Source of the DNA: Escherichia coli
GTDB taxonomy: Bacteria > Pseudomonadota > Gammaproteobacteria > Enterobacterales > Enterobacteriaceae
Assembly (NCBI RefSeq): GCF_003334305.1
Contig: NZ_QOWS01000017.1
Reading direction: 5' to 3' (one strand)
Length of the DNA stretch: 64,000 nt
The notes beneath the pieces were generated by a model. The model was not told the DNA's origin. It searched no databases and saw nothing but the letters and a program-made list of their open reading frames with translations. The stretch's first letter is position 1. The number at the start of each line of letters is the position of its first letter. The translations under genes and the position numbers were made by a program. This document shows, in pieces, positions 1 through 16,751 of the stretch.

Positions 1-52
1 AGTTAATGCAACCGGCACGGAATGCAGTCATCTGTCACAGGGAGGAAAGCAA

Positions 53-373
53 ATGAAAACCCCCTTACCGCCCGTCTTACGCGCAGCCCTTTACCGTCGC
101 GCTGTCGCCTGTGCCTGGCTGACCGTGTGCGAACGTCAGCACCGCTACCCGCATCTCACCCTTGAATCACTGGAGGCGGCCATCGCCGCTGAGCTGGAAG
201 GCTTTTATCTGCGCCAGCACGGTGAGGAAAAAGGGCGTCAGATAGCCTGTGCCCTGCTGGAAGATTTAATGGAATCCGGCCCCCTGAAGGCCGCGCCGTC
301 GCTGTCCTTTCTCGGGCTGGTTGTGATGGATGAACTCTGTGCCCGTCACATAAAAGCGCCGGTACTGCACTGA
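53..373 (+). CDS. hypothetical protein, P4-like satellite early region (106 aa)
   Basis: ORF with GGAGG RBS a few nt upstream of ATG; co-directional with and 15 bp upstream of the alpha-type primase gene; no motif recognised. Confidence 0.5.
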
Positions 374-387
374 AGGAGAACAACACC

Positions 388-2721: not shown

Positions 2722-2728
2722 CCCACCT

Positions 2729-2754
2729 GACCGGCATCTGCCGGTCTTTTTTTA
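2729..2754 (+). terminator. rho-independent terminator after primase gene
   Basis: GACCGGC-atct-GCCGGTC hairpin followed by T7 run, 8 bp after the stop codon. Confidence 0.65.
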
Positions 2755-2770
2755 TCCCTGAATTCCCCGA

Positions 2771-3070
2771 AGGTGAACAATCCACTGTTCACCCTTCACC
2801 GTATATTCACCCGTTATCACACTGAAATTAAAAGAGAAAAACGAAAGGTGAACAGTGTGAACAATCAAATCAAAAAAAACTTTTTTCTTCCTGAGTGATT
2901 TCAGCACGGGAAATTAATCCCCTGCACAAGTCACACCGGCAGAATGCCGGAGGTGAAGAATCGAATGTTCACCCTTCACCCATTATTCACCACCTATCCA
3001 ACTGAAATAAAAGGAGAAAACAGAAAGGTGAACAGTGTGAACAGTTCTTTCGAAAAAAAATTTTTTTCTT
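2771..3070. repeat. crr-like replication region: two ~120-bp direct repeats carrying TGTTCACC/GGTGAACA octamers
   Basis: Units at 2771-2890 and 2951-3070 (period 180 bp) align nearly base for base; each has at least three copies of the P4 type I iteron octamer in both orientations and ends in an A8/T8 tract. Confidence 0.75.
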
Positions 3071-3184
3071 ATTTTTAATTGTGCGAAAAACAAGCGACAC
3101 ACGCAGTGTGTATAGATATGTGTATAGTTATATTTTTTGAATATTATAATGTATTACAAATCAATGTGTTAGCTTGTAATATTC

Positions 3185-3203
3185 ACTCCTATTATCGGCA
3201 CCA
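3185..3203 (+). other. att core copy (tRNA-Thr 3'-end-like, ACTCCTATTATCGGCACCA)
   Basis: 19-nt string matching the T-arm-to-CCA end of thrW as I recall it; no full tRNA upstream; second copy at 15262-15279. Confidence 0.6.
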
Positions 3204-3808
3204 TCAAGAAAATCAATAACTTAGCTTAACTTCTCTAAGAAATTGTATCTTCTGTTATCACTTACAAACGCCTATACGTTGTTATGGGCTTTGGTAGTGT
3301 AACACGTATGGGCGAGTAGTTCCCAGGCTCAACCTCGTAACAAGTTCCTTTGAAGCTGGAAGACGTGCCACCGTCTCTAAACCTTCTACCAAAACTCTTA
3401 GCAAGATGTTCCACACCTGGCGCGGTGTCCAATGATGCTACACGTCGTGAGACGTTGCAGAGGATAAACAGGCTAAATGATGGGAAGAGTTTTAAGTGCA
3501 ATAGTGGATTAAAGCCCACCTCTTCAAAACCTAACTTGATCGGGAAAGAATCAAGCTCTAGCACGGTTTCGTCCACCGGAGTACAACGGGTGCCTGATAA
3601 GAGAAGAACTGCTAAGACTTCATAGCTTTTGTGAAAAAGCCCTTTTTAGTGGATACGCCTACGGCGCTTATTTTTTGGTATAACCATCAAAGGCGCTTTA
3701 TGGCTCCTATTGTCTTGAAAATGTATCTTTACTTGTATTGTGTTTTATGCGTAGTCTCCCTGTGTAGTATGTAACTTGTTAATTTTCATATGAATACAGA
3801 GGCACACG

Positions 3809-3967
3809 ATGAAAAACATTGCAGCTATCAAACGGAATAACCGCAAGATTCACGCTCGTAAGTTCCTGTCTACGCCAGAAGGAAAAGCCTGGCTAGAGCG
3901 TAAACAGAGAGAAAACGAAGAAAGAAAACTCCTTAGTGAGTTGAAATGGCTTAGAGAGGATTTCTGA
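3809..3967 (+). CDS. small basic protein (52 aa), hypothetical
   Basis: ATG with AGAGG-like RBS; Lys/Arg-rich; below the size cut-off of the ORF track; translated by hand. Confidence 0.3.
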   Translation: MKNIAAIKRNNRKIHARKFLSTPEGKAWLERKQRENEERKLLSELKWLREDF

Positions 3968-4260
3968 AAATCTCCAGAACGCAACAGGACGCATTCTAAC
4001 GCTGTTTTCATTACTCGGTATAGGGATTATAGGTGATGTGTGTTTAATGCGTCTGTGAGCTTGTTTTGTGCCTTATTTTGCATTTTCATAATGCAGGAGA
4101 GAACACGGAAAGCCTTAAAATTAATTATTGGGGTATTTAAGGCTATTTTTAGGTTATTTAAGGGTATTAAACTTGATTTAATTGATTGAAATATAAACAG
4201 ATAATTATGTATCTTATTGATTTATAAGGTTATTTTTAAATAAAGGTAAATAAAAAATAA

Positions 4261-4300
4261 ATAGCCATAAATAGCTATAAATACATCTAAATACCTATAT
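4261..4300. repeat. four tandem 10-bp A-rich units (ATAGCCATAA / ATAGCTATAA / ATACATCTAA / ATACCTATAT)
   Basis: Read directly; 10-bp period equals the helical repeat, suggesting bent DNA or a phased binding site. Confidence 0.6.
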
Positions 4301-4713
4301 CCCTTCCCTTATGGCTAGATTGCGAGAAGTGCTTAACGCGATTTTCAGCGCCCCCCGATCTGGAAAATCCAGAATCCCCAAATATCAGCAAGGAATTTTC
4401 TTGCGTAATCAACATCGTTTTTACCTATTAAATCATTACACAGAAAGCCTTTCTGTAATGTCTCTCACTAAACTTTCACTAAACACGAGAATGATCGGTT
4501 TTATGTCGGATCAGATGCTAGAAATAGCACCACGTCTCACAAGGGCTGTAAGCGATGAAACCAGTGTTTATGCGGGTGCAGGTCAAAATATAGGCCAAAA
4601 TACATTTAACATAATAAACGTAATATGCACTAAGGAACACATAGAACGCCTTGAGTTGATGTATCAGGGGAAAAGTGGTGGATTTTTTACGTAGGAGCAC
4701 GAGAGGGCTTCTA

Positions 4714-4741
4714 TTGACTTTTGTATGCTATGAAATATAAT
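4714..4741 (+). promoter_or_regulatory. candidate sigma70 promoter (TTGACT-16-TATAAT)
   Basis: Consensus-like hexamers with 16-bp spacer; no convincing ORF downstream, so it may drive a non-coding transcript through the repeat region. Confidence 0.35.
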
Positions 4742-5088
4742 AGAAGGTTTTTTTATGTTGATAGTGATTGCACATTAAAGATTGAAAGCAAATTTAAACA
4801 TAAATTTTCAACACGTGAAAGAGAACTTGTTCGACAAATGATAAAACGTTTATTGAGCAACAATTTTGCAGTGATGCGCTATATGCCGAATTACACAAGG
4901 CTTTGCGAAAGTGATGTAAAAGTGAAGAAAGTAAGAATTGCAACTTTAAGCTACTTTTCATTGAATTTTTTAGTATGGAATTACACAGGAATAAGTTAGG
5001 GATATTCTATGATTTACACAGGGAATATAGGGGGATTATGGCACACACATAGAAAGACATTACACAAAGTGCTATGTGACAAATGGAT

Positions 5089-5300
5089 GTAACGAGAGGT
5101 TACATTCAGCTATCTGAAATGCTCTCTGTAAGAAAGTTGGTAGTAACGATATGTTACATAGACTAATTATTGAATGTAACGATATTACACATCGGTAGTA
5201 ACGATACGTTACATCGACTAATTATTGAATGTAACGATATTACACATCGGTAGTAACGATACGTTACATCGACAGATGATTGGATGTAACGAAAGGTTAC
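5089..5300. repeat. array of seven 15-bp palindromic sites GTAACGA(t/a)A(t/c)GTTAC (iteron/operator/centromere-like)
   Basis: Sites start at 5089, 5143, 5176, 5198, 5231, 5253 and 5286; spacings 54/33/22/33/22/33 bp are all near multiples of 11 bp; includes a 56-bp unit repeated in tandem. Confidence 0.8.
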
Positions 5301-6398
5301 ACAATAAGACTATATTATTTATAATACTAAATAAAACTATATTAGATTATTAATTAGATCATAATAATATTCTTTATATCTATATATATGATCTTTTGCC
5401 TTCCGGCGTTAGCTTCACTCCCTGGCAAGCAGCCTTACTCCGCTACCTTTCGGGCTACGTTGGCTGGCCCGTTCCGCTCACACCGAAAGCAAAGCGTTAC
5501 TTTCTTCGTGTAACTATCGTGGCGGTAACGCCCACGAAGAAATACTATTGCGCTGTGCGCAGAAGAGTAATCACCTAACCAATCATAGATTGCTTATGTG
5601 TTAACTCTCTCTACCTCTTAATTCCACTTCCTACATTTAATAACTCTGTTATTCTCTGTAGTTGTGTAATTACTCGAAGAGAGAGCGGCTAAAGCTCAAT
5701 TACACTCTGCTTTCCTCGTGTAAGTTCACTAAGCCTCAATACAATTTCACTTCCTACATTCTGTAGTCGTGTAATTGTTTTCGGTGGAAAAGCCAGAGGC
5801 GACACCGAAAGAGAATTCTGATCTTATTAATCTTATCTATCTTAGTTAATCTTCTTACTTTATCTACTTTATTATTAATAATAGCTTTATAAGCTCTGTG
5901 TAGCTCTCTGACGCAAGAAACAGCATTCAGGAAGGGAATCACCTTAGAAAAGGTGTTCTTTGCGTCATAATGTGTTTTATGAAGGATTCAGAGGTGTTTC
6001 ATAACAGGAATGTATAGAGGATATTTTAATTAATTAAAAATAAGGGGTCTAAATGCTTCTCTAACAACATTAAGCAGGGTAGGGAATGGAAACGCATTGC
6101 CTACATATAATAAGCTCACTACAGGGCTTTACAGAGCGTTTTATAAAGTGACTCTCTGTTTTATATTTACCATTACCTTTTCATATACCTAACAAATACA
6201 AAATAAGCCCCTTCAATAAGCCTCTGGCGAGCGAAACAGCCATTAGATAAGGGAATGTATTGCTTTTATCAAAATCTCGTCAGAATGCGATTGAGAGTGT
6301 TTTAGCGGATAATGAAGAATAGCACTACATAGAAGAGCACGAATTGTTAAGCAAAATCATAACATACTGAAAAAGATCAGTTTTTTTGTGAAAAGGTA

Positions 6399-6427
6399 TT
6401 GACAAACGTCTCTTTCTGTGCAATAAT
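6399..6427 (+). promoter_or_regulatory. candidate sigma70 promoter (TTGACA-17-AATAAT) for the cargo operon
   Basis: Consensus -35 and near-consensus -10; about 125 nt upstream of the first RBS-preceded ORF, with a hairpin-rich leader. Confidence 0.5.
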
Positions 6428-6554
6428 AGGTATTAGAGGGGACAGGAATAGATTCTTATCCTCTAAATAATTAAACCAATGCACCGCACTTTGAAGCCCA
6501 AGAGGCTTGCAAGGTGTTTTTTCTTTTAACCAAATCGAATAAGGAGGCTAATTA

Positions 6555-6731
6555 ATGAAATATTTCACTCCACAGGATGTAGTAGAAGCCTGGAAACGTG
6601 GTGAGATCAACCGCTTTAAAGTAAGGATGTATAGAAACACCGCTCGCCGTTGTGGTTATCCAGAGCGTGAAAAATGTTTTGACGATGCACTGAAAATTAT
6701 TGATGAACTGCGTAAAGCTGAGAAAGAATAA
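6555..6731 (+). CDS. hypothetical small protein (58 aa)
   Basis: AAGGAGG RBS 6 nt upstream of ATG; first gene after the promoter; translated by hand. Confidence 0.5.
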   Translation: MKYFTPQDVVEAWKRGEINRFKVRMYRNTARRCGYPEREKCFDDALKIIDELRKAEKE

Positions 6732-6753
6732 TAGACAAGAGAAGGAGAAAACT

Positions 6754-6921
6754 ATGAGCGAAACTAAGAAACCAATTCCGCGCACTTACCTTCACGTTGA
6801 CCCTGAAATCTTCAAGGTTTTATTTGCTGAAGCCAAGAAAAGGCAAATTATGGTCAGTGATTTGATGTTAGAAATCATTACTGAAGCAGCAGAGAACATC
6901 AAACAAAAAAAGGGTAAGTGA
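6754..6921 (+). CDS. ribbon-helix-helix-like DNA-binding protein (55 aa)
   Basis: GAAGGAG RBS; N-terminal beta-strand-like segment (RTYLHV) followed by two short helices, an Arc/CopG-type pattern; inferred from sequence pattern only. Confidence 0.5.
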   Translation: MSETKKPIPRTYLHVDPEIFKVLFAEAKKRQIMVSDLMLEIITEAAENIKQKKGK

Positions 6922-6974
6922 TCCTCATTCACTTTAGTAGCGCATTAAGCGTGATTTATAAGGAGATGATTCTA

Positions 6975-7718
6975 ATGTCTAAAATTAAATTGATTCGTGA
7001 AAAATACCAGTATGTTGATAAACAAACAGGAGAAATTAAAGACCGAACTTTGAATATACCGCATTACTTTTGTGAGATTGAATTTATCTACTCCTCAAGT
7101 GTTGATGGTGGAAAAGTTAAGTTTAGTGCAGAAATGCAAAAATTATATTGCTATGTTTCAGATTGGGAGAAATCAGGGGGGATATGTTTTGAAACACAAA
7201 CGAAGTTAAGTAAAGTTTGTGGCTGTAGCCGTAAGACAGTTAATGAACTGATTGGTCTTATGATTAAAATCGGTCTTTTAGAAGAGGTCGGAGAACGAAT
7301 TCCAAAACGTCCTTTAAAATTACGTGCGCTACCTCTCACAGATGCACATATTACTCCCCCAGGAGAATCATCACTCTCTGATCTTTCTGAGGCAGAAGAA
7401 GCACAGGAACAACCTAAAGGCCATAAACAGCCTTCTTTTGATGTTCTTGATGATTGGGATGCGCCTTTACCGTGGGAGACGGAAGAAACACCTGTTTCAT
7501 CAAGTGAAAAGGTAGCTAATGATAATGAGGAGGATGTATTAGAGAATTTTGCCTCTCTTATCATCCAGGAGAAACACACAAGAACAGGAGGAGCATCATT
7601 TATTGAGTTTGCAAATTCACTAGCTTATAGATACGGGCTAAAACGACCAAATGGTATTGAGGCATATTTTTCTAAGAATTACCCAAATGTATATGATGAA
7701 TTTGATATTCCCTTTTAA
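6975..7718 (+). CDS. winged-helix DNA-binding protein with acidic linker (247 aa), possible replication initiator or regulator
   Basis: AAGGAG RBS; helix-turn-helix-like segment LSKVCGCSRKTVNELIGLMIKIGLLEE; Asp/Glu-rich middle; stop overlaps the next RBS. Confidence 0.55.
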   Translation: MSKIKLIREKYQYVDKQTGEIKDRTLNIPHYFCEIEFIYSSSVDGGKVKFSAEMQKLYCYVSDWEKSGGICFETQTKLSKVCGCSRKTVNELIGLMIKIGLLEEVGERIPKRPLKLRALPLTDAHITPPGESSLSDLSEAEEAQEQPKGHKQPSFDVLDDWDAPLPWETEETPVSSSEKVANDNEEDVLENFASLIIQEKHTRTGGASFIEFANSLAYRYGLKRPNGIEAYFSKNYPNVYDEFDIPF

Positions 7719-7748
7719 TAAGGAGGACTATGATTCAATATTTAGTAA

Positions 7749-8009
7749 AAAAATCAAGTAGACAGAATTCAGTGTAATGACACAGGAAAACGCATCTACG
7801 AAACACTTGCTTACCTCTATAAAGGAAAGCCAACACCGCTAAAATATAGCGATGTGTTACATCGAGCAGGGTGCTCTGAAGCTGGTTTAAAATTCTGGCT
7901 GAAACAGCTATCAAATTTCGGTGTTATTGAAATGAAAGAGCTGTCTTTTTCTACATTCAATCTCAAAAGATTAGATAAAGAAATAGAATTCATCTATTCC
8001 ACTCTCTAA
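7749..8009 (+). CDS. second winged-helix-like ORF lacking a canonical start (frameshift/slippage or pseudogene candidate)
   Basis: Open frame encoding ...YSDVLHRAGCSEAGLKFWLKQLSNFGVIEM...; an AGGAGG-ATG at 7730 opens a 15-codon ORF in another frame that crosses an A7 run (7747-7753) directly before this frame opens. Confidence 0.3.
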   Translation, partial: KNQVDRIQCNDTGKRIYETLAYLYKGKPTPLKYSDVLHRAGCSEAGLKFWLKQLSNFGVIEMKELSFSTFNLKRLDKEIEFIYSTL

Positions 8010-8141
8010 AATCTCTCTATGTAATTAAAATATAAAAGGAAAACATTATTATGATAGTAGCTATGTATTGGTTATTGTTCTTTCTCACGTTAGAAGCATA
8101 CTTTGGGGTGTTTTCCTTTAAAAGAAAAGGAAAAGTAAATA

Positions 8142-8558
8142 ATGGCAAAAAGAAAAAACAACGTTGTTAAGAAAATCGGTGATTCAGCTTCTCTTCTAAG
8201 TAAACCTAAACCTAAATCTATTCTAAGACGTAAAGACTTTAAAGAGCTAGTTACGCTCACCAAGCAAAATAGCGCCCCTGGCGAATGGAAAACAGAGATC
8301 ATAGAACATTCTCCCTCTGTGCCTTGTGGAGATGAATTTAACGCCTTGCAAGAAATCTTATCTTCAACACCTGGCGTATTCTGGAAACCTAGAAAAAGAA
8401 AAGAGTATATCGTTGATAGCTCTGATTTACGCAAATACCAGATTTTAGGATTTGAAGATTATAACCACTACGTCGGTTATCTCGCCACCAATGGCCTAAA
8501 TAATTTAGTTCCTGAATTCCAAATTTTAGATAATGCTGATCACTATGGAGACTTTTAA
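8142..8558 (+). CDS. hypothetical protein (138 aa), basic N-terminus
   Basis: ATG preceded by AAAGGAAAAG; no motif recognised. Confidence 0.5.
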   Translation: MAKRKNNVVKKIGDSASLLSKPKPKSILRRKDFKELVTLTKQNSAPGEWKTEIIEHSPSVPCGDEFNALQEILSSTPGVFWKPRKRKEYIVDSSDLRKYQILGFEDYNHYVGYLATNGLNNLVPEFQILDNADHYGDF

Positions 8559-8559
8559 T

Positions 8560-8898
8560 ATGAACAAAAACACGTATGACACAATTTATTCACTAATTAA
8601 TTATTATGAGGATGATTACCTCCTGCCTTTAAACCGCGCTGAACTTGAAGCATACAAAGAAAACACGCCAGGGGCGCTAAATGAGGCGTTTAAACACTGG
8701 GATTTAGCTGTGAATGCCTTTGAGCACCTTTCTAAAAGAGTAGAGATGCTCTGTAAGCGTGAAAACGCATACCTGACAGCCGATCAGATATGGGAGCTAT
8801 CAAACTGGATAGAAGATATTGAATCTGATGTTCGCTATGTAGGGGATGGCCTGGTTGAATTAGCTCAACGCTTAGGCGCTACTATCACAGAAGAATAA
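8560..8898 (+). CDS. hypothetical acidic protein (112 aa)
   Basis: ATG 8560 with GGAG 7 nt upstream, 1 nt after the previous stop; an in-frame upstream ATG at 8533 would overlap the previous gene. Confidence 0.5.
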   Translation: MNKNTYDTIYSLINYYEDDYLLPLNRAELEAYKENTPGALNEAFKHWDLAVNAFEHLSKRVEMLCKRENAYLTADQIWELSNWIEDIESDVRYVGDGLVELAQRLGATITEE

Positions 8899-8927
8899 AA
8901 AAAGCAACAAAAAAGTTGTAAAATATC

Positions 8928-8956
8928 TTGACATTCCATCTATTGTATGTTAATAT
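8928..8956 (+). promoter_or_regulatory. candidate sigma70 promoter (TTGACA-17-TAATAT)
   Basis: Consensus -35; located in a 350-bp gap inside the operon. Confidence 0.45.
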
Positions 8957-9093
8957 AATTATATAGGGGTGATTATTTTTCCTTTATTGGTTCGATATTA
9001 AAAATTCTTCCTGTCATTAAAGGGGAGTAAAATCTCCGCTCCCCGCTTCTCCTCCTTAAGTAAATACTGTGTCATTATACCTCTTTTTTCCTT

Positions 9094-9125
9094 TGTTATG
9101 CATACATCTTGGAGTATGCATAACA
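9094..9125. promoter_or_regulatory. 12-bp perfect inverted repeat TGTTATGCATAC-N8-GTATGCATAACA (operator or RNA hairpin)
   Basis: Read directly; lies between the 8928 promoter and the next gene. Confidence 0.6.
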
Positions 9126-9165
9126 TAGGGTAATTACATAGGTATGAGTTAATAAAAGGCGGCTC

Positions 9166-9189
9166 TAAATGCTGCCTTTTATTTTGCCC
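9166..9189 (+). terminator. weak intrinsic terminator or attenuator
   Basis: AGGCGGC-tctaaat-GCTGCCT stem with one G-U pair, followed by TTTTATTTT. Confidence 0.4.
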
Positions 9190-9247
9190 GTTATGCAACT
9201 TAAAAGTTGTATTTCTTACTTTAAAAAAGGTAACAAGGTTTATATAA

Positions 9248-9460
9248 ATGTTGTTTTTAAACGATAAAGAGCAAATCATCAAGTATAAAGATGAAATGCT
9301 GAAAATTAATCCACAAATTACCGAAATGGTAGCTAAATACGCTGGGTGTTCTGTCGAGGAAGTAGAAAGATGTGTTGAAAAATATTTTTCTCCTTCTACT
9401 CCGTCTACACCTTCCCTTAATGAATTAATCAAATTAAAAGCTAAGGAGATTACTAAATGA
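9248..9460 (+). CDS. hypothetical protein (70 aa)
   Basis: ATG with AAGG upstream; stop overlaps the start of the next gene (ATGA). Confidence 0.5.
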   Translation: MLFLNDKEQIIKYKDEMLKINPQITEMVAKYAGCSVEEVERCVEKYFSPSTPSTPSLNELIKLKAKEITK

Positions 9461-9819
9461 TTATTGATTTAGACACTCTGTTTCCAGTTAGAAAGACTTT
9501 CACAGATATTGTAAGTTATTGTACTGATCCGTTTGCCTCTGTAGAAAGCAAGGTTTTTGCTTCTCTTCCTGCTGATGTTGAGTGCGGCGACTTGATCACC
9601 AGTACTGGCGCTAAATATGAATCAGGAGATGATATCTATGTTGTTATGAGTGAATTTGTAACGGCTGGAGAAAACAAGCCTGTAGATGTGCTACGTAGTA
9701 ATGCTGGTCTTGTCTGCATCAAAGCTGATGCGCTGAATGCTGTAAGTGAAGCAGCAAAAACAGCATTAATTAAAAAAGGCTTCCAGCTTGAAGGGTTCCA
9801 TTCTGTTTTCACTTCTTAA
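9457..9819 (+). CDS. hypothetical protein (120 aa)
   Basis: AAGGAG RBS; translationally coupled to the upstream ORF. Confidence 0.55.
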   Translation: MIIDLDTLFPVRKTFTDIVSYCTDPFASVESKVFASLPADVECGDLITSTGAKYESGDDIYVVMSEFVTAGENKPVDVLRSNAGLVCIKADALNAVSEAAKTALIKKGFQLEGFHSVFTS

Positions 9820-9837
9820 TAAAAGGAATAATAATAA

Positions 9838-10869
9838 ATGATTCTAGGTAATGATTACGTTGATTTAGCTCCGCTTTTCCAGGCACACAGCACTAGAAAC
9901 TTTCTGCTCTCTACCCTCGACTTCACTGATCCGGTGGGCGTTAGTTCTCATAAAGTAGCTGTTTCTCAGCTTGTCGAAAGCAACGAATCTCTGTTCAACA
10001 AAGAAACCTCTCGTTTCTCTTCTGAACACAATGTTACTAAGCGTGAACAAGGTAAAGAATGGCTGATTGAAATCCCGTATTTTCTTCGTGAAGATGTGAT
10101 CCGTCCTTCTGATGTTCAAGGCAAGCGTAAGCCTGGCACTGATTTTCAGGAAACACTCACTGATATCTATGCGGAATATATCGCTAAACACCACGTAGCG
10201 TATCAGCGTACAAAAGAGAGCGTGTTGGCTGCATCTCTGTTTAGCGGTAAAACTTACACGCCTAAAACTGATGATGTTCTTATCGAGTGGGGCAAGCTGT
10301 TTAACGTGGCACCTATGAAAGCCACCTTGAACGCTTCCAGCACTGACACAATGACCGTTTTCAAGCAATTTGACCAGCTTGCTACGGATATGATTGCTAA
10401 GGCACAAAACCAGGCTGCAACCATTGAGCGTGTTGTTGTGTTCTGTAAACCTGCGGCATTCAACGCTATTCGTTACAGTGTTGGTATGGTCAATGCTTTC
10501 CAATATGCAAGCCCTGTAGACGATGCCAACGTGGTGTTTAATGTGCGTTCCCTGCTACCAGGTGTAACTACTTTCACCATTCCAGGAACTAACATTGACC
10601 TGATCAAAGTGACTGATCCGCTACACCTTGCACATATGGCTTCTGATGCGGTTGCTGTGCCTAAATTCGCTAAGGGGGCAGGTGTTTACCAATCTATCTA
10701 TGGGGCAGCTTCCAGCACCTTTGAACTGATCAATGCCGCTCCTGCTGAGGTGTATAGCTATAGCTATGAATCTTCTTCTCGTGGTGATGCTGTTAACGTT
10801 GTTACAGAGAATAGCCAGATGGTGGTAAACCACGGCGTTGGTTTCTCCGTTCAAATCACTGTTAAATAA
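9838..10869 (+). CDS. hypothetical protein (343 aa), no motif recognised
   Basis: Long ORF in AT-rich DNA with AAGGA RBS; followed by a strong terminator. Confidence 0.65.
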   Translation: MILGNDYVDLAPLFQAHSTRNFLLSTLDFTDPVGVSSHKVAVSQLVESNESLFNKETSRFSSEHNVTKREQGKEWLIEIPYFLREDVIRPSDVQGKRKPGTDFQETLTDIYAEYIAKHHVAYQRTKESVLAASLFSGKTYTPKTDDVLIEWGKLFNVAPMKATLNASSTDTMTVFKQFDQLATDMIAKAQNQAATIERVVVFCKPAAFNAIRYSVGMVNAFQYASPVDDANVVFNVRSLLPGVTTFTIPGTNIDLIKVTDPLHLAHMASDAVAVPKFAKGAGVYQSIYGAASSTFELINAAPAEVYSYSYESSSRGDAVNVVTENSQMVVNHGVGFSVQITVK

Positions 10870-10887
10870 TATTTTAACGTGTAATAG

Positions 10888-10925
10888 AGGCGTGGCGTGA
10901 ATAACACGCTTCGCCTTTTTTTATT
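10888..10925 (+). terminator. rho-independent terminator
   Basis: Nested hairpin AGGCG-tg-GCGTG-aataa-CACGC-tt-CGCCT followed by a T-rich run. Confidence 0.65.
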
Positions 10926-10955
10926 TATTTTTAAATTTTGAGAGGTGATTAAAAT

Positions 10956-11159
10956 ATGGAAGTGATTCTGAAATCAAAAAATGGTGTACACGTTTATTTA
11001 GATGCTAATGATTCAAGAGGCTTGTTAAATCTGAAATATCTATGTTCTCTCTTGGATGTTCCATATGAAGGCGTAAAAGCCCGAATGTTCAGATTAAACG
11101 AGAGTATTGATCAAGCTCTACACCATTTCTTAAGCAAAGAAGGTGGTAAAAATGATTAA
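10956..11159 (+). CDS. hypothetical protein (67 aa)
   Basis: GAGAGGTGA RBS; 15 bp upstream of the 612-aa gene. Confidence 0.45.
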   Translation: MEVILKSKNGVHVYLDANDSRGLLNLKYLCSLLDVPYEGVKARMFRLNESIDQALHHFLSKEGGKND

Positions 11160-11173
11160 TAAGGGGATTTTAA

Positions 11174-13012
11174 ATGTTAGAAATTAACACTTCTAAAATT
11201 AAGAACACAGTAACATTTAGTGTAGATAAAGACAGCTTGAAAAAAGCGAAAGACTCTATTACAGGCTTAAAGGAATTCACAGAAAACATCAAGCCAGCTA
11301 AATTAAGGTTTGATAGTGTCACTAAAGGCTATAAGAAAGCACAAAGCGAAGTAGACAAGATTGCTCAACAGAAAGCTAAAACAGAAAAGCAGAATCAAAG
11401 AGCACAAGCTGCCGCAGCAAGAGCACAGGCAAGGCAACAGACACAAATAGCAGCACGTAAAGAGAAAGCAGAATTAAAGCTCCTCGATGTGTCAAGCTCT
11501 ATCAGTGCAATGCACCGCCTCTCTGTAGCGGAACAATACAAAGCTATTGCACAGGCTAGAGAGATAGCAAAACAATATGAGCAAGGGGCTATCTCGCTTG
11601 CACGTATGAATAGTCAGATGAAACGCCTACAACAGCAACAACGTAAGATTAATGGCAACAGAAAAGCTCAATTAGCCCCCGTTAAGGGAGGAGGATCAGG
11701 GAATTCCGCCACGATGGGTGCTCTGTTATTTGGAGGCGCTACAGCGGCTGCTGGCGTGATGGCTGTTAGTAAAGCGTCGGAGTTTGTTAGTAACAGTTTC
11801 GCTAACGCAGAGACACAAGGTGAGCTAATTCAACGTGCAAGGCTTGGCGGTGTAGACGTTAACCAGATGTACAACATTACAGAATGGGCCTATAGAAACG
11901 GCGTTGACTCTATGATGGGTGATCAAGGGGCTAGGAAATACCTGGATCAGATGAAAGATGTTAGGGAACGTGCCGCAAAATCCTATAGTGAAGCTGAATA
12001 TGTAGTCGATAAAAAAACTGGTAAAGGCGGCGAATGGAAAGGCGGTGATAACGCTATTAATGAACTTCTAAACATCGGTGTTATTAACAAGAGCGACCTT
12101 AAAAAATTTGCTGATAATCCAGCCGGATTAATTTCTAAGGCTGTTAATGGAATGATGAAAAAAGGGTTTTCAGACTCCCAAATTGGACAACGTTTAGAAG
12201 ACCTGGGTGATGATTTGATGCTTACATCAAAATATTGGCAACGTTCCGTTAAAGATGTACAAACAAGCATCGAGCAGCAAAAAGCCTCTGGAAAATGGCT
12301 AACAGAAACACAGCAAGATTCTATTGTTAAATTCAGAGAACTAAACAGACAGCTTTCACAGCTTTCTGATGCAAGACAAGTAGCATTTGTAGACGGCTTT
12401 ATGAAATCTCTCGATCCAAAAGTAACGGAAGAGTTTATGAAAAACCTTTCTAATCTCACTCCGTATTTTACAAAGCTGGGAGAAGCTACAGGAAGTCTCT
12501 TTGAAGCTATTATGAAGATTGTAAACTGGTTTAATCGTAATGATGATAAGACAGATGCTATTCAGAAAAATTTAGGTGATGCACCGCCATTAAGCAATGA
12601 AGGAATGAAACAGAATCTTTCTAATCTCGTTCCTGATCAATATAAAGGCGCTGGCACCGGAACAACTAAGCCAGATAACAGCAATTCCCTGTTTAACACT
12701 ATTAAGGGATTGCTTTTCGATGATAAGTCTTCTTCTGTGTCAGATGTAAAAATGTCAGTCAGCGAAGCACCGATAACCAATCTCAAACAGGGCGCTTTAA
12801 ATAATCTTGCAATGACAACTCCGGCTTATAATTTATCTCCTGTGTTTAATCTGAATCCTACATTTGAAGTGGTAACAGAGGTTCCTCTTACTATTAATTC
12901 TGACACATCAAGATTAAGCGATTATGTGGATTTTACAGCGAGATCAAGTCGGGATAGCTTCTTGAAATCATTAACATTAACCAGCTTATCAGGACAATCT
13001 AACGGCGGGTAA
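11174..13012 (+). CDS. large coiled-coil protein with central Gly-rich hydrophobic segment (612 aa); tape-measure-like or membrane-interacting, function unknown
   Basis: AAGGGG RBS; N-terminal approx. 150 aa rich in Q/A/R/K/E; segment GGGSGNSATMGALLFGGATAAAGVMAV; no NTP-binding or catalytic motif seen. Confidence 0.7.
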   Translation: MLEINTSKIKNTVTFSVDKDSLKKAKDSITGLKEFTENIKPAKLRFDSVTKGYKKAQSEVDKIAQQKAKTEKQNQRAQAAAARAQARQQTQIAARKEKAELKLLDVSSSISAMHRLSVAEQYKAIAQAREIAKQYEQGAISLARMNSQMKRLQQQQRKINGNRKAQLAPVKGGGSGNSATMGALLFGGATAAAGVMAVSKASEFVSNSFANAETQGELIQRARLGGVDVNQMYNITEWAYRNGVDSMMGDQGARKYLDQMKDVRERAAKSYSEAEYVVDKKTGKGGEWKGGDNAINELLNIGVINKSDLKKFADNPAGLISKAVNGMMKKGFSDSQIGQRLEDLGDDLMLTSKYWQRSVKDVQTSIEQQKASGKWLTETQQDSIVKFRELNRQLSQLSDARQVAFVDGFMKSLDPKVTEEFMKNLSNLTPYFTKLGEATGSLFEAIMKIVNWFNRNDDKTDAIQKNLGDAPPLSNEGMKQNLSNLVPDQYKGAGTGTTKPDNSNSLFNTIKGLLFDDKSSSVSDVKMSVSEAPITNLKQGALNNLAMTTPAYNLSPVFNLNPTFEVVTEVPLTINSDTSRLSDYVDFTARSSRDSFLKSLTLTSLSGQSNGG

Positions 13013-13046
13013 TTCCCGCCATAACATTACAAGGAAAATTATTATT

Positions 13047-13760
13047 ATGGCGACCGCCGGGATTTTAACCATACGTGCAGCAAATACTCCAGAACAACAC
13101 GTTCAGGCTGTTTACAAAGCAGAACAAGATATAAATTCTACAAAAAACGAAAATAGCAAAGCTAATAAAACAAAAGGAGAGAACGGATTTGCTATTGTTA
13201 CCAGTGGCTTGGCATCTTCTGGCAATGACGTTTATGAAAATTATATGGCCCTGGCCTTTGACAGTGTAGACGATGTGAACGTGAGACGTTCGGCAGATGT
13301 CACAAGCTACCCCGTAGAAAATGGTGCTACTGTGTCTGATCACGTTCAAATTAAAAACAATAAGTTTTCTCTTAAAGGAAGGATCACTGAAACACCGATT
13401 AAAAGCGATCCTGGCTTGTTAAAGAGTGCAGGGGTGAACGGGAACAGAAGATCATTAGCCATAGACTACTTGAATCAGATTATGGACAGTAGACAGCCTT
13501 TTCTTCTTGTTACAGAAAATAAAACTTTTGAGAACGTTGTTTTAACAGGCATCGAATACACAGAAGAGGCAAGCGAATCCCTGGTATTTGATCTTAGCTT
13601 TGAGCAGATCAGATTAGTTTCTTATGGCACTGTATCCACTATTGCACTTAAAACACAACCATCTAAGAACATCGGGGCGAATATGAAAAAACGTGTTAAC
13701 ACTGAAAAATCAAGTAGTGAAGGTGAAGACACTATTACTCCTGCCTTTAAGCAGAAATAG
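13047..13760 (+). CDS. hypothetical protein (237 aa)
   Basis: AAGGA RBS; last gene of the + strand operon, convergent with the integrase. Confidence 0.6.
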   Translation: MATAGILTIRAANTPEQHVQAVYKAEQDINSTKNENSKANKTKGENGFAIVTSGLASSGNDVYENYMALAFDSVDDVNVRRSADVTSYPVENGATVSDHVQIKNNKFSLKGRITETPIKSDPGLLKSAGVNGNRRSLAIDYLNQIMDSRQPFLLVTENKTFENVVLTGIEYTEEASESLVFDLSFEQIRLVSYGTVSTIALKTQPSKNIGANMKKRVNTEKSSSEGEDTITPAFKQK

Positions 13761-13803
13761 CCGTAAACGCCTCTAAAACGCTCTGTAACGATGTAATTAT
13801 AAA

Positions 13804-13840
13804 AGAGGCTGCCAATCTATGTTGAAGCCTCTTTATTGTG
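13804..13840. terminator. bidirectional terminator between convergent operon and integrase
   Basis: AGAGGCT-N15-AGCCTCT hairpin flanked by T-rich runs on both strands. Confidence 0.5.
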
Positions 13841-13841
13841 T

Positions 13842-15176
13842 TTATGGCGTTGTTTTACGCCTTAAATTTGATTTTTTATTGATTGATAAGCCTTTCTCTA
13901 TTTCAGGGTAGCGTAGAAGCTCAATATAGTTTTTAAGCTCTACTGGAGAAGCTGCATTCTTGCTATATGTGCGGAATGTCTCTGTATTGCCGCGTGTATG
14001 GCCCAGGAGAAGGGCGATCCTGTCTTCTGGAATTTGATTTCGATCAAGAAGCTGTGCTACTCCGTGTCTCAGAGAATGAAACACTTTCCTTTCTGTTCCC
14101 TTTTCCCCTAAAGCCTTTCGTTTAGCTCTTGTAAATCTCTGCGTGTGCCACGTGGAACGTTTACCATCAGCACGCTCTGTAATGCTGGCGTGATAGAACA
14201 AAAAGCCATTATGAGGCTTTTCACGCAGCGACAACACCAACGGAGTGATAAGGCTATGTACAGGCACAACACGTGCCGCAGCTTTCGTTTTTCCCTGTGT
14301 GATTTCAAAACACAGCACACCTTCGATCTCTTTCACATCGTCTATTGTGAGACTTGCTATCTCATTGATCCGCATACCTGTATATAAACCGATAAGACAC
14401 AAAGCCATCATTTCTTTGTTTTCTGCTGAATTACCGGAAAATACTTGCAACACCTGCAATAGCTCTTTGTTAGAAAATGCCTCGTAGCTCTCTCTACTTT
14501 GTGCCACATCAAGCCTATGCCCTCGCCAGGGGGAGAGCGCCCTTTCTGGCGCATCGTGGTAACGTGATGAAGCTAACTCCCATAGCTGGGCTATTGGGCT
14601 GATATAATTTGCAATTGATTGTTGTGAAAGAGTTTTTTGCATGTGTTCTATCCAGCCTGTAACAGTGGTGCGGCTCACATCTTGCAATGCAATATCAGGC
14701 TTTTTACGGTAGGAGAGAAACATCTCTACCGCTTTTCTTGCCTTAGCTAAAGTGGCTGGCTTCTTCTTCGTGCTGTTAATTGTCAGGTAGATTTCAAGAA
14801 TTTTAAGCAATGACGGACACGAAGACGCTGTATCTTGCATTCTGGTAGCTGTTTTGGCGTATTTAGCCTTACTGCGTAACAGCTCCAGCGTGTTCTCTAT
14901 TGTGCTGTTTACAGGGGCGACACTCTCCCGTAGGCAATGGTATTCATCTGCAATCTGATCACGCTTTCTACGTGCAACACGAAGATTATTTGTGTGTAGA
15001 CTTCTGACAAACGTCCTTTTTCCTTCAAAAAAGGGCTGCATATACACAGGCAGCGTGATCCTTAAATAGTAGTTACCGTAAGAATCACAGATTAAGTATT
15101 GGTTAGGCTTGTATCTCATAAAATCTCCGGCTAAAGTGTCGGAGCGTTTGTAATGTGAAAATTGATTGTAACGCAT
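13842..15176 (-). CDS. tyrosine-type site-specific integrase
   Basis: Box I GMRINE, box II HSLRHG, LLGH, and a C-terminal tyrosine in TFRTYS; ATG at 15176 (a TTG at 15206 gives the 454-aa track ORF); sits directly inside the right att copy. Confidence 0.85.
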   Translation of the reverse strand: MRYNQFSHYKRSDTLAGDFMRYKPNQYLICDSYGNYYLRITLPVYMQPFFEGKRTFVRSLHTNNLRVARRKRDQIADEYHCLRESVAPVNSTIENTLELLRSKAKYAKTATRMQDTASSCPSLLKILEIYLTINSTKKKPATLAKARKAVEMFLSYRKKPDIALQDVSRTTVTGWIEHMQKTLSQQSIANYISPIAQLWELASSRYHDAPERALSPWRGHRLDVAQSRESYEAFSNKELLQVLQVFSGNSAENKEMMALCLIGLYTGMRINEIASLTIDDVKEIEGVLCFEITQGKTKAAARVVPVHSLITPLVLSLREKPHNGFLFYHASITERADGKRSTWHTQRFTRAKRKALGEKGTERKVFHSLRHGVAQLLDRNQIPEDRIALLLGHTRGNTETFRTYSKNAASPVELKNYIELLRYPEIEKGLSINKKSNLRRKTTP

Positions 15177-15218
15177 AGAAAATGATAATTTTTCTATAAG
15201 ATTCAATCAATTAGTAAT

Positions 15219-15279
15219 GGTCGTAGGTGATGGCATTAACACGAGATTAATCGAGTGTTTTACTCCTATTATCGCACCA
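15219..15279 (+). pseudogene. tRNA-Thr 3'-half remnant (ptwF-like) containing the right att core copy
   Basis: GGTCGTAGGT, then a 33-nt unrelated insert, then ACTCCTATTATCG-CACCA; not a foldable tRNA. Confidence 0.55.
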
Positions 15280-15405
15280 TTAAAATCAAAGAGTTACCCC
15301 ATATTTAAATACACCACGTTTCCTCCTGTGCCGCATTTGTGCCATTGTAACCTTGGCAATTCATCAAAATACTGTTCTGACATCAGGCAGTGCAGGTGCA
15401 GCTAT

Positions 15406-15816
15406 TTAAACCAATTGCTGCCGCCATTCTTTGACGTAGTCAATCAGGGCGCGGAGCTTTGGTGCAATATTGCGACGCTGTGGGAAATACAGATAGAAGC
15501 CCGGAAATTGTGGAAGAAAGTCATCAAGCAGCGATACAAGCTTACCGCTTTCAATATATGGCCTGAAAGTTTCCTGAGTGGCAATTGTTATTCCTCCGCC
15601 GGCAAGAGCCAGCCTCAACATCAGACGCAGATCATTAGTCGTAATCTGCGGTTCAATCGCAAGGTCGAAAGTTCTCCCGTTTTCTTCAAATGGCCAGCGA
15701 TAAGGCGCAACCTCCGGGGACTGACGCCAGCCGATACACTTATGGGTATTTCCCCCGGAGGCGAGAAAGCGCTCTCCACGCCCGGCCGCAAGGATCAGGA
15801 CGACGGGGGCAGGCAT
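15406..15816 (-). pseudogene. yagP: LysR-family regulator fragment (C-terminal substrate-binding domain only)
   Basis: 136-aa reading frame from MPAPVV... matching the yagP remnant as I recall it; no N-terminal HTH domain present; overlaps the paoD 3' end. Confidence 0.6.
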
Positions 15817-16751
15817 GAATCCTCCTCCTGATGGAGACGTACAGAGGCGACTTCTGCCAGCACGGAGAGTGCCAGAGTATGCGCATCCCGGGCTTTGGGG
15901 AATATCCCGACGGGTGCCCGGATTTGCGTTGTTTCCTCCCTGGACCATCCCAGCTCGTGGAGCTTTTGCAGACGTAACGTGTGGGTTCGATAGCTGCCCA
16001 ATGCGCCGAGATAAAAGGGTTTTGCTTCTCGCGCGGCCTGCAACACTGGCAGCTCCCGGTTGAGATCATGGCACAGCAAAATGACCGCCGTATCGGTATC
16101 GATCTGAGCGCTGGCTGAGGCCGGAAAAAGATCGAAGATATGGCTGTCATAGCCTGTGGCTGCTGCAAGACTCGCAGTTGCCTGCGCCTCAAGAGAACGT
16201 CCGTAAATCATCAGCCTGACGCATGGCCTGAACCCCACCTCAAAGCCATTGAGATTCCAGCCCGTTCGGGTTTGCGTGGGCAGGCACACCAGCGATTGTG
16301 CTTGCGGATCGTAGCGCAGCCCCGCCGGTTTTCTCTGTTCCAGACGGTTCAGCACGGCGAGCAGAGGCTGTGCCGAGCGTAGTTTATGGAGCGTCAGCGT
16401 GATCCCACCGCCGCAGGGCAGAACGATGTCAAACCACGGCGAACCTTCGCCATAGCGAATTTCGCGATCGCGGCCTGAGCCCATCATCTCCAGCGCTTCA
16501 AAAGCGGCAGCGGCCTCCACGCAGCCGCCAGAGACAAAACCGCAGTAACGACCATCTTCGCGAACCACCATCTGCGCCCCGAGCGGGCGCGCTGCGCCGC
16601 CGCGTATCTCCACCAGCGTCACCAGCACCGCTCCTTTACCGGACATTAGCGCCTCTACGGCGAAGCGCAGAATGGTCCGGTGGTCATCGGTGAGAAACGC
16701 CTGCTCTGGCTTATGCCAGTGTTCGTCTTTATCAAAAAGCGGGTATGACAT
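15795..16751 (-). CDS. paoD: XdhC-like molybdenum cofactor insertion chaperone
   Basis: 318 aa; position directly downstream of paoC in the paoABCD operon. Confidence 0.85.
   Translation of the reverse strand: MSYPLFDKDEHWHKPEQAFLTDDHRTILRFAVEALMSGKGAVLVTLVEIRGGAARPLGAQMVVREDGRYCGFVSGGCVEAAAAFEALEMMGSGRDREIRYGEGSPWFDIVLPCGGGITLTLHKLRSAQPLLAVLNRLEQRKPAGLRYDPQAQSLVCLPTQTRTGWNLNGFEVGFRPCVRLMIYGRSLEAQATASLAAATGYDSHIFDLFPASASAQIDTDTAVILLCHDLNRELPVLQAAREAKPFYLGALGSYRTHTLRLQKLHELGWSREETTQIRAPVGIFPKARDAHTLALSVLAEVASVRLHQEEDSCLPPSS

What the first reader, a model, noticed from the sequence alone, without database searches (positions are those of the whole stretch)
5089..5300. Helically phased array of seven palindromic GTAAC-N5-GTTAC sites
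Seven 15-bp sites (consensus GTAACGATAnGTTAC; two carry the variant right half TACAC) start at 5089, 5143, 5176, 5198, 5231, 5253 and 5286. Spacings of 54/33/22/33/22/33 bp are all close to multiples of 11 bp, placing sites on one face of the helix. This looks like an iteron set, partition centromere or multi-operator for a dimeric protein; the RHH and wHTH proteins downstream are candidate binders. No ParA/ParM-type ATPase is present, so a complete partition system is not supported.
Basis: seen in the sequence. Interest (0 to 1): 0.6.

Follow-up and report, generated by a model that had tools for sequence, protein, structure and literature searches.

The report
Replication-origin repeats of a phage satellite
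The seven palindromic repeats are most likely the binding sites ("iterons") of the replication origin of a 12-kb phage satellite integrated in the E. coli chromosome. They are matched to the DNA-binding domain of a satellite protein that virulent phages appear to have copied, possibly to attack this origin.

Summary
Five perfect GTAAC-N5-GTTAC sites and two GTAAC-N5-TACAC variants lie at 5089-5300 and nowhere else in 64 kb. A 55-bp tandem duplication produced four of them.

The array sits in a gene-poor part of a 12.1-kb integrative element (about 3185-15280). The element encodes a capsid protein and tail proteins related to phi92-like phages. The most AT-rich DNA of the element (5313-5392, 90% AT) follows the array directly.

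In 45 related loci the same slot holds one of five unrelated arrays with 22-23 bp spacing. In 42 of the 45, the array next to the AT-rich DNA matches the N-terminal winged-helix allele of the downstream 247-aa protein (6975-7718). The RHH allele does not co-vary.

That protein matches phage replication-initiator families. Its model resembles the N-terminal domain of PLE RepA, and it ends in an SSB-like acidic IPF tail.

Best reading (about 0.72): an iteron origin with its cognate initiator. The operator, packaging-site and partition readings are weaker.

Phages inny, muut and Mt1B1_P17 carry near-identical copies of these DNA-binding domains, fused to a MUG113/T5orf172-like domain, but inny has no such array. 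This mirrors Odn of phage ICP1, which cuts the PLE origin. Binding, replication and cleavage are all untested.

The parts
3185..15280 (+). The 12.1-kb integrative satellite-like element that contains the array. It is bounded by the direct repeats ACTCCTATTATCG(G)CACCAT at 3185 and 15262 and lies in tandem after a P4-like satellite at tRNA-Thr (thrW).
   Evidence: Whole-element contigs of 12.3 kb bounded by the tRNA 3' end.
4888..5066 (+). Conserved left flank with four direct TTACACA motifs (4891, 4981, 5014, 5060). It is present in all family members whatever their array type.
5089..5300 (.). Type-A iteron array. Seven dyad sites at 5089-5103, 5143-5157, 5176-5190 (variant), 5198-5212, 5231-5245 (variant), 5253-5267 and 5286-5300.
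5139..5292 (+). A 55-bp tandem repeat, 2.8 copies with two sites per unit. It accounts for the two extra sites relative to the five-site relatives.
5301..5395 (.). AT-rich stretch (87% AT; 5313-5392 is the most AT-rich 80 nt of the whole element at 90%). It holds two GATC sites (5357, 5390) and is the presumed DNA-unwinding element.
5396..5560 (.). Conserved G+C-rich segment (45% AT) with hairpin potential, immediately right of the AT-rich DNA. Its function is unknown. A single-strand initiation or primosome site is one possibility, offered as inference only.
   Evidence: No Rfam match.
6399..6427 (+). Strong promoter-like site (TTGACA-17-TG-AATAAT) ahead of the operon that encodes the 58-aa protein, the RHH protein and the initiator.
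6754..6921 (+). RHH-like 55-aa protein. It does not co-vary with the array, and phages inny and muut carry a 99-100% identical copy.
6975..7718 (+). Rep-like initiator of 247 aa. It has an N-terminal beta-hairpin plus winged helix (aa 1-129, nt 6975-7361) that carries the specificity, a disordered acidic linker (aa 134-182), a small helical domain, and the C-terminal tail DEFDIPF (nt 7695-7715).

Best explanation
The array is the iteron set of the replication origin of a 12-kb phage satellite.

Proposed mechanism (inference unless marked otherwise):
1. Dimers of the 247-aa protein encoded at 6975-7718 bind the seven dyad sites through the N-terminal winged-helix domain.
2. The array of bound dimers, spaced two or three helical turns apart, distorts the DNA and opens the adjacent 95-bp AT-rich stretch (5301-5395).
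3. The protein's C-terminal part (acidic disordered linker, small helical domain, SSB-like D-x-IPF tail) recruits replisome components of the host or the helper phage that normally dock on the SSB tail, for example PriA, DnaG, the Pol III chi subunit, or phage equivalents.

What is shown here:
- The sites, their spacing and the AT-rich neighbour.
- The modular co-variation of array type with the DNA-binding domain.
- The similarity of that domain to replication initiators.

What is inferred:
- Binding, unwinding, recruitment, and dependence on a helper phage of the phi92/phAPEC8 group.
For: (1) Anatomy. There are seven dyad sites at 22/33/54-bp spacing. They are followed directly by the most AT-rich 80 nt of the element and lie inside a 3.3-kb stretch with almost no genes.

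(2) Cognate pairing. In related loci the same slot holds five unrelated arrays, each with 22-23 bp spacing:
- A: GTAAC-N5-GTTAC
- B: GGTAGGTCAyWGTGArCTA
- C: ACAGAATTCTGT
- D: GATACCCCTATCAA
- E: TAGGAAnTGnnTTCCTA
The array adjacent to the AT-rich DNA matches the N-terminal allele of the downstream protein in 42 of 45 loci. Random pairing gave a mean of 9.9 and a maximum of 23 in 100,000 permutations. All loci taken from isolate genomes are concordant.

(3) The RHH allele does not co-vary.

(4) Four of the DNA-binding-domain types (A, B, C, E) were scanned. Each independently hits PHROG families annotated 'replication initiation protein', 'O-like' or 'DnaD-like helicase loader' (E down to 3e-10), and none hits a family annotated as repressor or terminase. 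Pfam gives HTH_36.

(6) Three different C-terminal versions, and homologues only 25-40% identical, all end in an acidic (I/L)PF tail like SSB's DDDIPF (PMC5872125).

(7) No other replication gene is found in the element, so the satellite needs such a module.

(8) Phages carry 93-100% identical copies of domain types A, C and F fused to a nuclease-like domain. The whole inny genome contains no type-A array. This is the pattern described for ICP1 Odn, which targets the PLE origin.
Against: - No experiment shows binding or replication.
- The array is 1.7 kb from the initiator gene, not within or next to it as in lambda or many plasmids.
- No DnaA box lies near the array.
- The element has no helicase, primase or loader gene.
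- The loci are related, so the co-variation reflects about five independent modules, not 45 events.
- Three metagenome contigs are discordant. They may be assembly chimeras.
- Site 5089 and several 'relic' arrays persist in elements whose protein has a different domain, so not every array copy is cognate.
Confidence: 0.72

Rival explanations
1. Operator or enhancer array. The wHTH protein is a transcription factor, and the sites control a promoter at the array's right end (-35 GTTACA at 5296, -10 TATAAT at 5320) or act at a distance on the operon.
Against: The promoter-like match is not present after type B or type C arrays. No type-A site lies near the real operon promoter at 6399, 1.1 kb away. 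No gene follows the array for 1.2 kb. All PHROG matches are to replication initiators. The SSB-like tail has no obvious role in a repressor.
Confidence: 0.1
2. Packaging recognition site. The array is a pac/cosB-like site bound by a small-terminase-like wHTH protein that directs the satellite DNA into helper capsids.
For: Small terminases use N-terminal wHTH domains and repeated, phased sites. Satellites commonly encode their own packaging specificity. This rests on general knowledge, not on a test made here.
Against: There is no terminase match in PHROGs or Pfam. The nearest specific structure is a replication initiator. A different segment (4314-4356) is the one that resembles the helper's terminal-repeat region. 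The protein has a long disordered acidic linker and no oligomerisation core.
Confidence: 0.05
3. Partition centromere bound by the RHH or wHTH protein, as the first reader also suggested.
For: Phased direct repeats resemble parC-type centromeres, and an RHH protein is encoded nearby.
Against: No ParA/ParM/TubZ-type NTPase is found in the element. The element is integrated and carries an integrase. The RHH allele does not co-vary with the array.
Confidence: 0.02
4. Decoy or relic repeats without a present function. They would be left over from earlier origin modules or would serve only to titrate a phage DNA-binding protein.
For: Non-cognate 'relic' arrays do persist in relatives, for example type A, B, C and D sites in L003, L015 and L025.
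Against: In this window the array is the one adjacent to the AT-rich DNA and it matches the resident protein's domain. That is the configuration found in 42 of 45 loci. The type-A half-sites are conserved in an element that is only about 81% identical in this region (L005), where the changes within sites fall in the central N5.
Confidence: 0.06

Closest known systems
PLE ori / RepA module of Vibrio cholerae satellites, and ICP1 Odn (PMC7145576, PMC8263062)
   Same: It is a satellite of a virulent myovirus. Semi-palindromic iterons lie in a non-coding region and are bound by an initiator whose N-terminal domain carries the specificity and which has no helicase or primase activity. Origin and DNA-binding-domain modules are swapped between satellite variants. 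The helper phage carries a chimeric protein with a copy of the satellite's DNA-binding domain joined to a T5orf172-type (GIY-YIG clan) domain. The best specific structural match of the domain modelled here is PLE RepA-NTD (4RO3).
   Different: There is no detectable sequence similarity to PLE RepA, and Pfam RepA_N is not hit. There are seven 15-19 bp sites rather than three ~30-bp iterons. The initiator ends in an SSB-like IPF tail. At least five module types exist rather than two. The phage proteins carry two DNA-binding domains in tandem. Here the phage copy is 93-100% identical to the satellite domain, against 42% for Odn. Nuclease activity is not established.
Bacteriophage lambda ori / O protein
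   Same: An array of dyad-symmetric sites, each presumably bound by a dimer, is followed by an AT-rich unwinding region and then by a G+C-richer palindromic segment. Specificity lies in the initiator's N-terminal domain and recruitment in the C-terminal part. Lambdoid phages likewise exchange ori/O specificities. PHROG 'O-like' families are hit.
   Different: The origin is not inside the initiator gene. There is no P-type helicase loader gene. The C-terminal part is unrelated.
Iteron plasmids (pSC101, F, P1, R6K, RK2; winged-helix Rep proteins)
   Same: Direct repeats at roughly 22-bp spacing next to an AT-rich region, with a winged-helix initiator encoded in cis (established knowledge).
   Different: There are no DnaA boxes. 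The satellite protein has one winged helix rather than two. The sites are palindromic. The element is integrative and probably replicates only after induction.
SaPI/PICI origins (Pri-Rep)
   Same: A satellite origin made of iterons next to AT-rich DNA, with allele-specific Rep/ori pairs (established knowledge).
   Different: SaPI Rep is a helicase encoded next to a primase gene, and the origin lies immediately 3' of rep. Neither is the case here.

Membership tests
Iteron-type replication origin | Several direct copies of one binding site at about two-turn spacing | tested here: met
   There are seven sites at 22/33/54 bp. The other array types in the same slot have 22-23 bp spacing.
Iteron-type replication origin | An adjacent AT-rich unwinding region | tested here: met
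   5301-5395 is 87% AT, and 5313-5392 is the most AT-rich 80 nt of the 12-kb element.
Iteron-type replication origin | A cis-encoded initiator whose DNA-binding domain is specific for the repeats | tested here: met
   The evidence is indirect. Array type and N-terminal domain allele are concordant in 42 of 45 loci across five types. Physical binding was not tested.
Iteron-type replication origin | The fragment supports initiator-dependent replication | not testable with these tools
   This needs a replication assay or marker-frequency analysis.
RepA_N / PLE-type satellite replicon | An initiator N-terminal domain with the RepA_N/DnaD-like fold | tested here: inconclusive
RepA_N / PLE-type satellite replicon | Origin and DNA-binding-domain modules exchanged between satellite variants | tested here: met
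Lambda ori/O/P replicon | The origin lies inside the initiator gene, and a P-type helicase loader is encoded next to it | tested here: not met
   The array is 1.7 kb upstream of the gene. No loader-like gene is found in the element.
Plasmid partition centromere (parC/parS) | An adjacent ParA/ParM/TubZ NTPase gene and centromere-binding protein gene | tested here: not met
   No NTPase is found among the element's ORFs. The RHH allele does not co-vary with the array.
Odn-like origin-directed nuclease (applies to the phage proteins inny_184, muut_154 and the Mt1B1_P17 protein) | A DNA-binding domain copied from the satellite initiator | tested here: met
   Type A: 96% aa (tblastn) and 97.6% nt identity (BLASTP alignment). 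Type F: 100% nt identity to 64 E. coli chromosomes. Type C: 93-95% aa identity. The inny genome contains no type-A array.
Odn-like origin-directed nuclease (applies to the phage proteins inny_184, muut_154 and the Mt1B1_P17 protein) | A GIY-YIG/T5orf172 nuclease domain that cleaves the origin | tested here: inconclusive
   Pfam gives MUG113 at E 4.6e-4 and T5orf172 at E 0.11. PHROG 681 'endonuclease' scores E 4e-18, but against the C-terminal part of that profile. The AlphaFold model of this domain has pLDDT of about 33. Cleavage is not testable here.

The most novel reading that the evidence does not exclude
The array is the contested target in an origin-directed arms race in E. coli. Virulent Stephanstirmvirinae phages (Justusliebigvirus inny and muut, Phapecoctavirus Mt1B1_P17) carry a chimeric protein. 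Its first winged helix is a near-exact copy of a satellite initiator's DNA-binding domain (types A, F and C), and its C-terminal MUG113/T5orf172-like domain would cut or block the satellite origin, as ICP1 Odn does to PLE. The satellites would escape by swapping array and DNA-binding domain together, leaving stacks of relic arrays. Type B, the commonest type, has no phage copy in the collection searched. In addition, the initiator would recruit the replisome through a mimic of the SSB C-terminal tail.
Probability: 0.4. Interest if true: 0.85.

Novelty: new variant of a known kind. Interest (0 to 1): 0.7.

Why it matters
If correct, this defines the replicon of a widespread family of satellites in E. 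coli and other Enterobacteriaceae. Searches of the held literature found no description of this family. The satellites appear to parasitise large virulent phi92/phAPEC8-like phages, which are used in phage therapy.

It offers a second, independent case of the Odn-type phenomenon (phage against satellite origin), so far described only for Vibrio ICP1 and PLE, with at least five specificity modules available for direct swap experiments in a tractable host.

It also suggests a testable way for a helicase-less initiator to recruit a replisome, through an SSB-tail mimic. How RepA_N-like initiators do this is stated as an open question in PMC7145576.

Tried and rejected
- Rfam at E<=1 over 2700-16000 gave only two sub-threshold chance hits away from the array. 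No tRNA was found.
- blastn in 'distant' mode of 4600-5700 against phages gave no match.
- No DnaA box (TTWTNCACA) lies near the array.
- The sigma-70-like site at 5296-5325 was considered as the regulated promoter. It was rejected because it is absent after type B and C arrays.
- A res site for the serine recombinase that neighbours the array in relatives was considered. It was rejected because the window's element lacks that gene and the arrays co-vary with the wHTH protein instead.
- Folding of the G+C-rich segment 5385-5600 gave z-scores of only -2.4 and -2.0. The 1-kb non-coding stretch is too conserved for covariation analysis.
- The whole genome of phage inny was scanned for array types A, B, C and E, and none was found.
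- The PDB sequence search was uninformative for the initiator and for the phage C-terminal domain.
- NCBIfam and PADLOC gave nothing relevant.
- A word-indexed homologue search with the phage C-terminal domain found nothing.
- The AlphaFold model of the phage protein was unusable in its C-terminal domain, so its nuclease fold could not be checked.
- Literature searches found no description of these satellites or of an E. coli Odn analogue. The library is incomplete, so this is not proof of novelty.

Full report
OBSERVATION

The sequence shows seven 15-bp sites starting at 5089, 5143, 5176, 5198, 5231, 5253 and 5286, with spacings of 54/33/22/33/22/33 bp. Five are perfect GTAAC-N5-GTTAC sites. 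With one mismatch allowed, these are the only five matches in the 64-kb window; shuffles gave a mean of 1.23 and none of 100 reached five. The other two sites end in TACAC. With their flanks the sites are 17-19 bp palindromes, for example ATGTAACGAGAGGTTACAT.

Three qualifications apply.
- A 55-bp unit holding two sites is tandemly repeated 2.8 times at 5139-5292. Close relatives have five sites at 54/33/22/33. The window's array therefore carries a recent duplication.
- At 10.5 bp per turn the sites spiral around the helix, with phases from 0 to 274 degrees. They line up only for an 11.0-bp repeat.
- The 'variant half' belongs to a second motif, TTACACA. Nine of its 12 copies in the window lie within 4436-5669.

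WHERE IT LIES

The window is from the chromosome of E. coli strain A7.

Positions 1-3066 are the end of a P4-like satellite (alpha primase, crr) integrated at tRNA-Thr.

From 3185 to about 15280 lies a second element, bounded by direct repeats (ACTCCTATTATCG(G)CACCAT). It has:
- a 3.3-kb stretch almost free of genes, which holds the array;
- an operon starting at a strong promoter-like site (6399-6427) that encodes a 58-aa protein, a 55-aa RHH-like protein and a 247-aa wHTH protein;
- a lambda-E-type major capsid protein, a tape-measure-like protein, a Dit-like tail protein and a tyrosine integrase.

The tape-measure-like and Dit-like proteins are 30-61% identical to inny_105 and inny_106 of the phi92-like phage inny. 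Sequences from this 6-kb region occur in about 1,480 of 5,426 complete E. coli genomes, and 162 genomes hold most of the region. Whole-element contigs of 12.3 kb bounded by the tRNA 3' end were found in three sequencing runs. The element looks like a satellite of phi92/phAPEC8-like phages. No description of it was found in the held literature.

Directly right of the array lies the most AT-rich DNA of the element (5301-5395 is 87% AT; 5313-5392 is 90%). A conserved G+C-rich segment follows (5396-5560).

THE DECISIVE COMPARISON

Related loci came from complete genomes, IMG/VR contigs, metagenome contigs and Logan assemblies. They share the left flank and the right flank. Between the flanks they carry one of five unrelated repeat arrays, each with 22-23 bp spacing:
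- A: GTAAC-N5-GTTAC
- B: GGTAGGTCAyWGTGArCTA
- C: ACAGAATTCTGT
- D: GATACCCCTATCAA
- E: TAGGAAnTGnnTTCCTA

The homologues of the downstream 247-aa protein share their C-terminal part but have five unrelated N-terminal domains of about 100-130 residues.

The array next to the AT-rich DNA predicts the domain allele:

| Array | Domain allele | Concordant loci |
|---|---|---|
| A | A | 8 |
| B | B | 12 |
| C | C | 4 |
| D | F | 9 |
| E (plus a degenerate E variant) | E | 9 |

That is 42 of 45 loci. Random pairing gave a mean of 9.9 and never more than 23 in 100,000 permutations. The loci are related, so this reflects about five independent modules rather than 45 events. The three exceptions are metagenome contigs and may be assembly chimeras across the 1.4-kb conserved spacer.

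The RHH allele does not follow the array: one allele accompanies arrays A, B and C. The wHTH protein is therefore the cognate binder. This is an inference from co-variation, not a measured interaction.

WHAT THE PROTEIN IS

Four of the domain types (A, B, C, E) were scanned against PHROGs. Each independently matches families annotated as replication initiation protein, O-like initiator or DnaD-like helicase loader (E down to 3e-10), and none matches a family annotated as repressor or terminase. Pfam reports HTH_36.

An AlphaFold model built on 23 homologues shows:
- a confident beta-hairpin plus winged helix (residues 6-118);
- a disordered acidic linker (residues 134-182);
- a small helical domain.

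All versions of the C-terminal part end in an acidic (I/L)PF tail: DEFDIPF here, and DDFDIPF and YDSIPF in versions with otherwise different C-terminal regions. Homologues only 25-40% identical have FEDLPF, FDPIPF, FEIPF or FELPF, and several also have an internal DD(I/L/V)P(F/C) motif. This resembles the SSB C-terminal motif DDDIPF, through which SSB binds DnaG and other replication proteins (PMC5872125). The resemblance is a short linear motif, and its function here is inferred.

MECHANISM

I conclude, with confidence of about 0.72, that 5089-5300 plus 5301-5395 is an iteron-type origin. Dimers of the initiator would occupy the dyad sites. The nucleoprotein array would open the AT-rich DNA. 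The C-terminal part would bring in host or helper replisome components. The element has no helicase, primase or loader gene, so replication probably depends on the helper, as PLE replication depends on ICP1.

RIVAL EXPLANATIONS

- Operator array (0.10). The promoter-like site at 5296-5325 is not conserved after type B or C arrays. No type-A site lies near the operon promoter.
- Packaging site (0.05). There is no terminase similarity, and a different segment (4314-4356) is the one that resembles the helper's terminal-repeat region.
- Partition centromere (0.02). There is no NTPase, and the element is integrative.
- Relic or decoy repeats (0.06). Relic arrays do exist in relatives, but here the array is the cognate one and is the one adjacent to the AT-rich DNA.

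THE PHAGE CONNECTION

Window 6742-7367 is 97.6% identical to phage inny. inny_184 (367 aa) consists of a type-A domain (96% aa identity by tblastn; BLASTP alignment), a type-E domain and a phage-specific C-terminal domain.

The orthologues in two other phages have the same architecture with a different first domain:
- muut: type F, 100% nt identical to the satellite gene in 64 E. coli chromosomes;
- Phapecoctavirus Mt1B1_P17: type C, 93-95% aa identity.

Type B, the commonest type among the satellites, has no phage counterpart in the collection searched.

The whole inny genome has no type-A array, so its type-A domain has no cognate target of its own. The phage C-terminal domain gives Pfam MUG113 (E 4.6e-4) and T5orf172 (E 0.11), both in the GIY-YIG clan, and PHROG 681 'endonuclease' (E 4e-18). 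Its AlphaFold model was unusable.

This is the pattern of ICP1 Odn: a RepA-like DNA-binding domain fused to a T5orf172 nuclease that binds the PLE iterons and cuts the origin, driving swaps of origin and RepA modules. The mosaic stacks of relic arrays in some satellites would fit repeated origin replacement. I give this reading a probability of about 0.4. No nuclease activity has been shown, and the direction of transfer is unknown.

COMPARISON WITH KNOWN SYSTEMS

The origin works like the PLE ori/RepA module, like lambda ori/O and like plasmid iteron origins. It is not a member of the lambda O/P family, because the origin is not inside the gene and there is no P-type loader. Membership in RepA_N is unresolved. 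It fails the partition-centromere test. The distinctive points are the SSB-like tail on an initiator, at least five interchangeable specificity modules, and near-identical phage copies of those modules.

VERDICT

I rate it a new variant of a known kind, interest 0.7.

Noticed in passing
window 3185-15280: A 12.1-kb integrative element sits in tandem with a P4-like satellite at thrW. It encodes a lambda-E-type capsid protein (9838-10869), a tape-measure-like protein (11174-13012) and a Dit-like tail protein (13047-13760). The two tail proteins are 30-61% identical to inny_105 and inny_106 of a phi92-like phage. It appears to be an undescribed satellite family that is widespread in E. coli and has relatives in other Enterobacteriaceae.
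   Followed up: partly
window 4314-4356: A 43-bp segment is 93-97% identical to the terminal-repeat region of phi92-like phages (phi92 positions 318-357, inside the annotated left terminal repeat; inny 138625-138667). It may mimic a packaging signal.
   Followed up: no
window 7695-7715 (last 7 codons of 6975-7718): The initiator ends in DEFDIPF. An acidic (I/L)PF tail like SSB's DDDIPF is kept in three otherwise different C-terminal versions and in homologues only 25-40% identical. Some homologues also have an internal DDIPF-like motif.
   Followed up: partly
window 6754-6921: The 55-aa RHH-like gene is 99-100% identical to genes of the virulent phages inny (inny_185) and muut (muut_153), where it also precedes the wHTH-containing gene. 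The phage and the satellite have exchanged this segment very recently.
   Followed up: partly
window 4436-5669: Nine of the 12 TTACACA motifs in the 64-kb window cluster here. Eight are on the + strand to the left of and inside the array, and one is inverted at 5663. The left-flank copies are conserved in family members of every array type, so something other than the variable wHTH domain may recognise them.
   Followed up: partly
window 5396-6400: About 1 kb of non-coding DNA between the origin and the operon is 93-100% conserved across the family. It includes a G+C-rich hairpin-prone segment (5396-5560; folding z-scores -2.4 and -2.0). There is no Rfam match. One relative (L005) has a different sequence in this position.
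   Followed up: partly
L019 27797, 30682, 31563, 33871, 35605, 36464 (phage inny 127.8-136.5 kb): Six GGCGGGAA[A/G]TGGTTTCCCGCC hairpins lie just downstream of early promoter-like sites in phage inny. They share the 13-nt core GGAAGTGGTTTCC with the satellites' type-E iterons, and type E is the domain present as the second wHTH in the three phage proteins examined (inny, muut, Mt1B1_P17). Whether this is coincidence or a native target of that domain is unclear.
   Followed up: no
L003 3230-3720, L015, L025 1215-1550: Some satellites carry stacks of two to five different arrays, and even two AT-rich segments, in the same slot. Only the array nearest the conserved right flank matches the resident DNA-binding domain. 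The junctions between cassettes fall inside GTAAC sites.
   Followed up: partly
L004 2084-2623, L005 2193-2744, L006 2194-2745, L021 1385-1924: Most relatives carry a ~180-aa serine recombinase (Resolvase family) 400-900 bp left of the array. Some also carry an HTH gene and an HNH endonuclease, and some sit at a different attachment site next to thiM. The window's element lacks the recombinase.
   Followed up: no
L001 4695-8017 (upstream of the window start): The neighbouring P4-like satellite carries an ATP-dependent nuclease plus a UvrD-type helicase pair between its integrase and psu. This looks like a defence cargo of the Gabija type; the name is from memory and was not tested.
   Followed up: no
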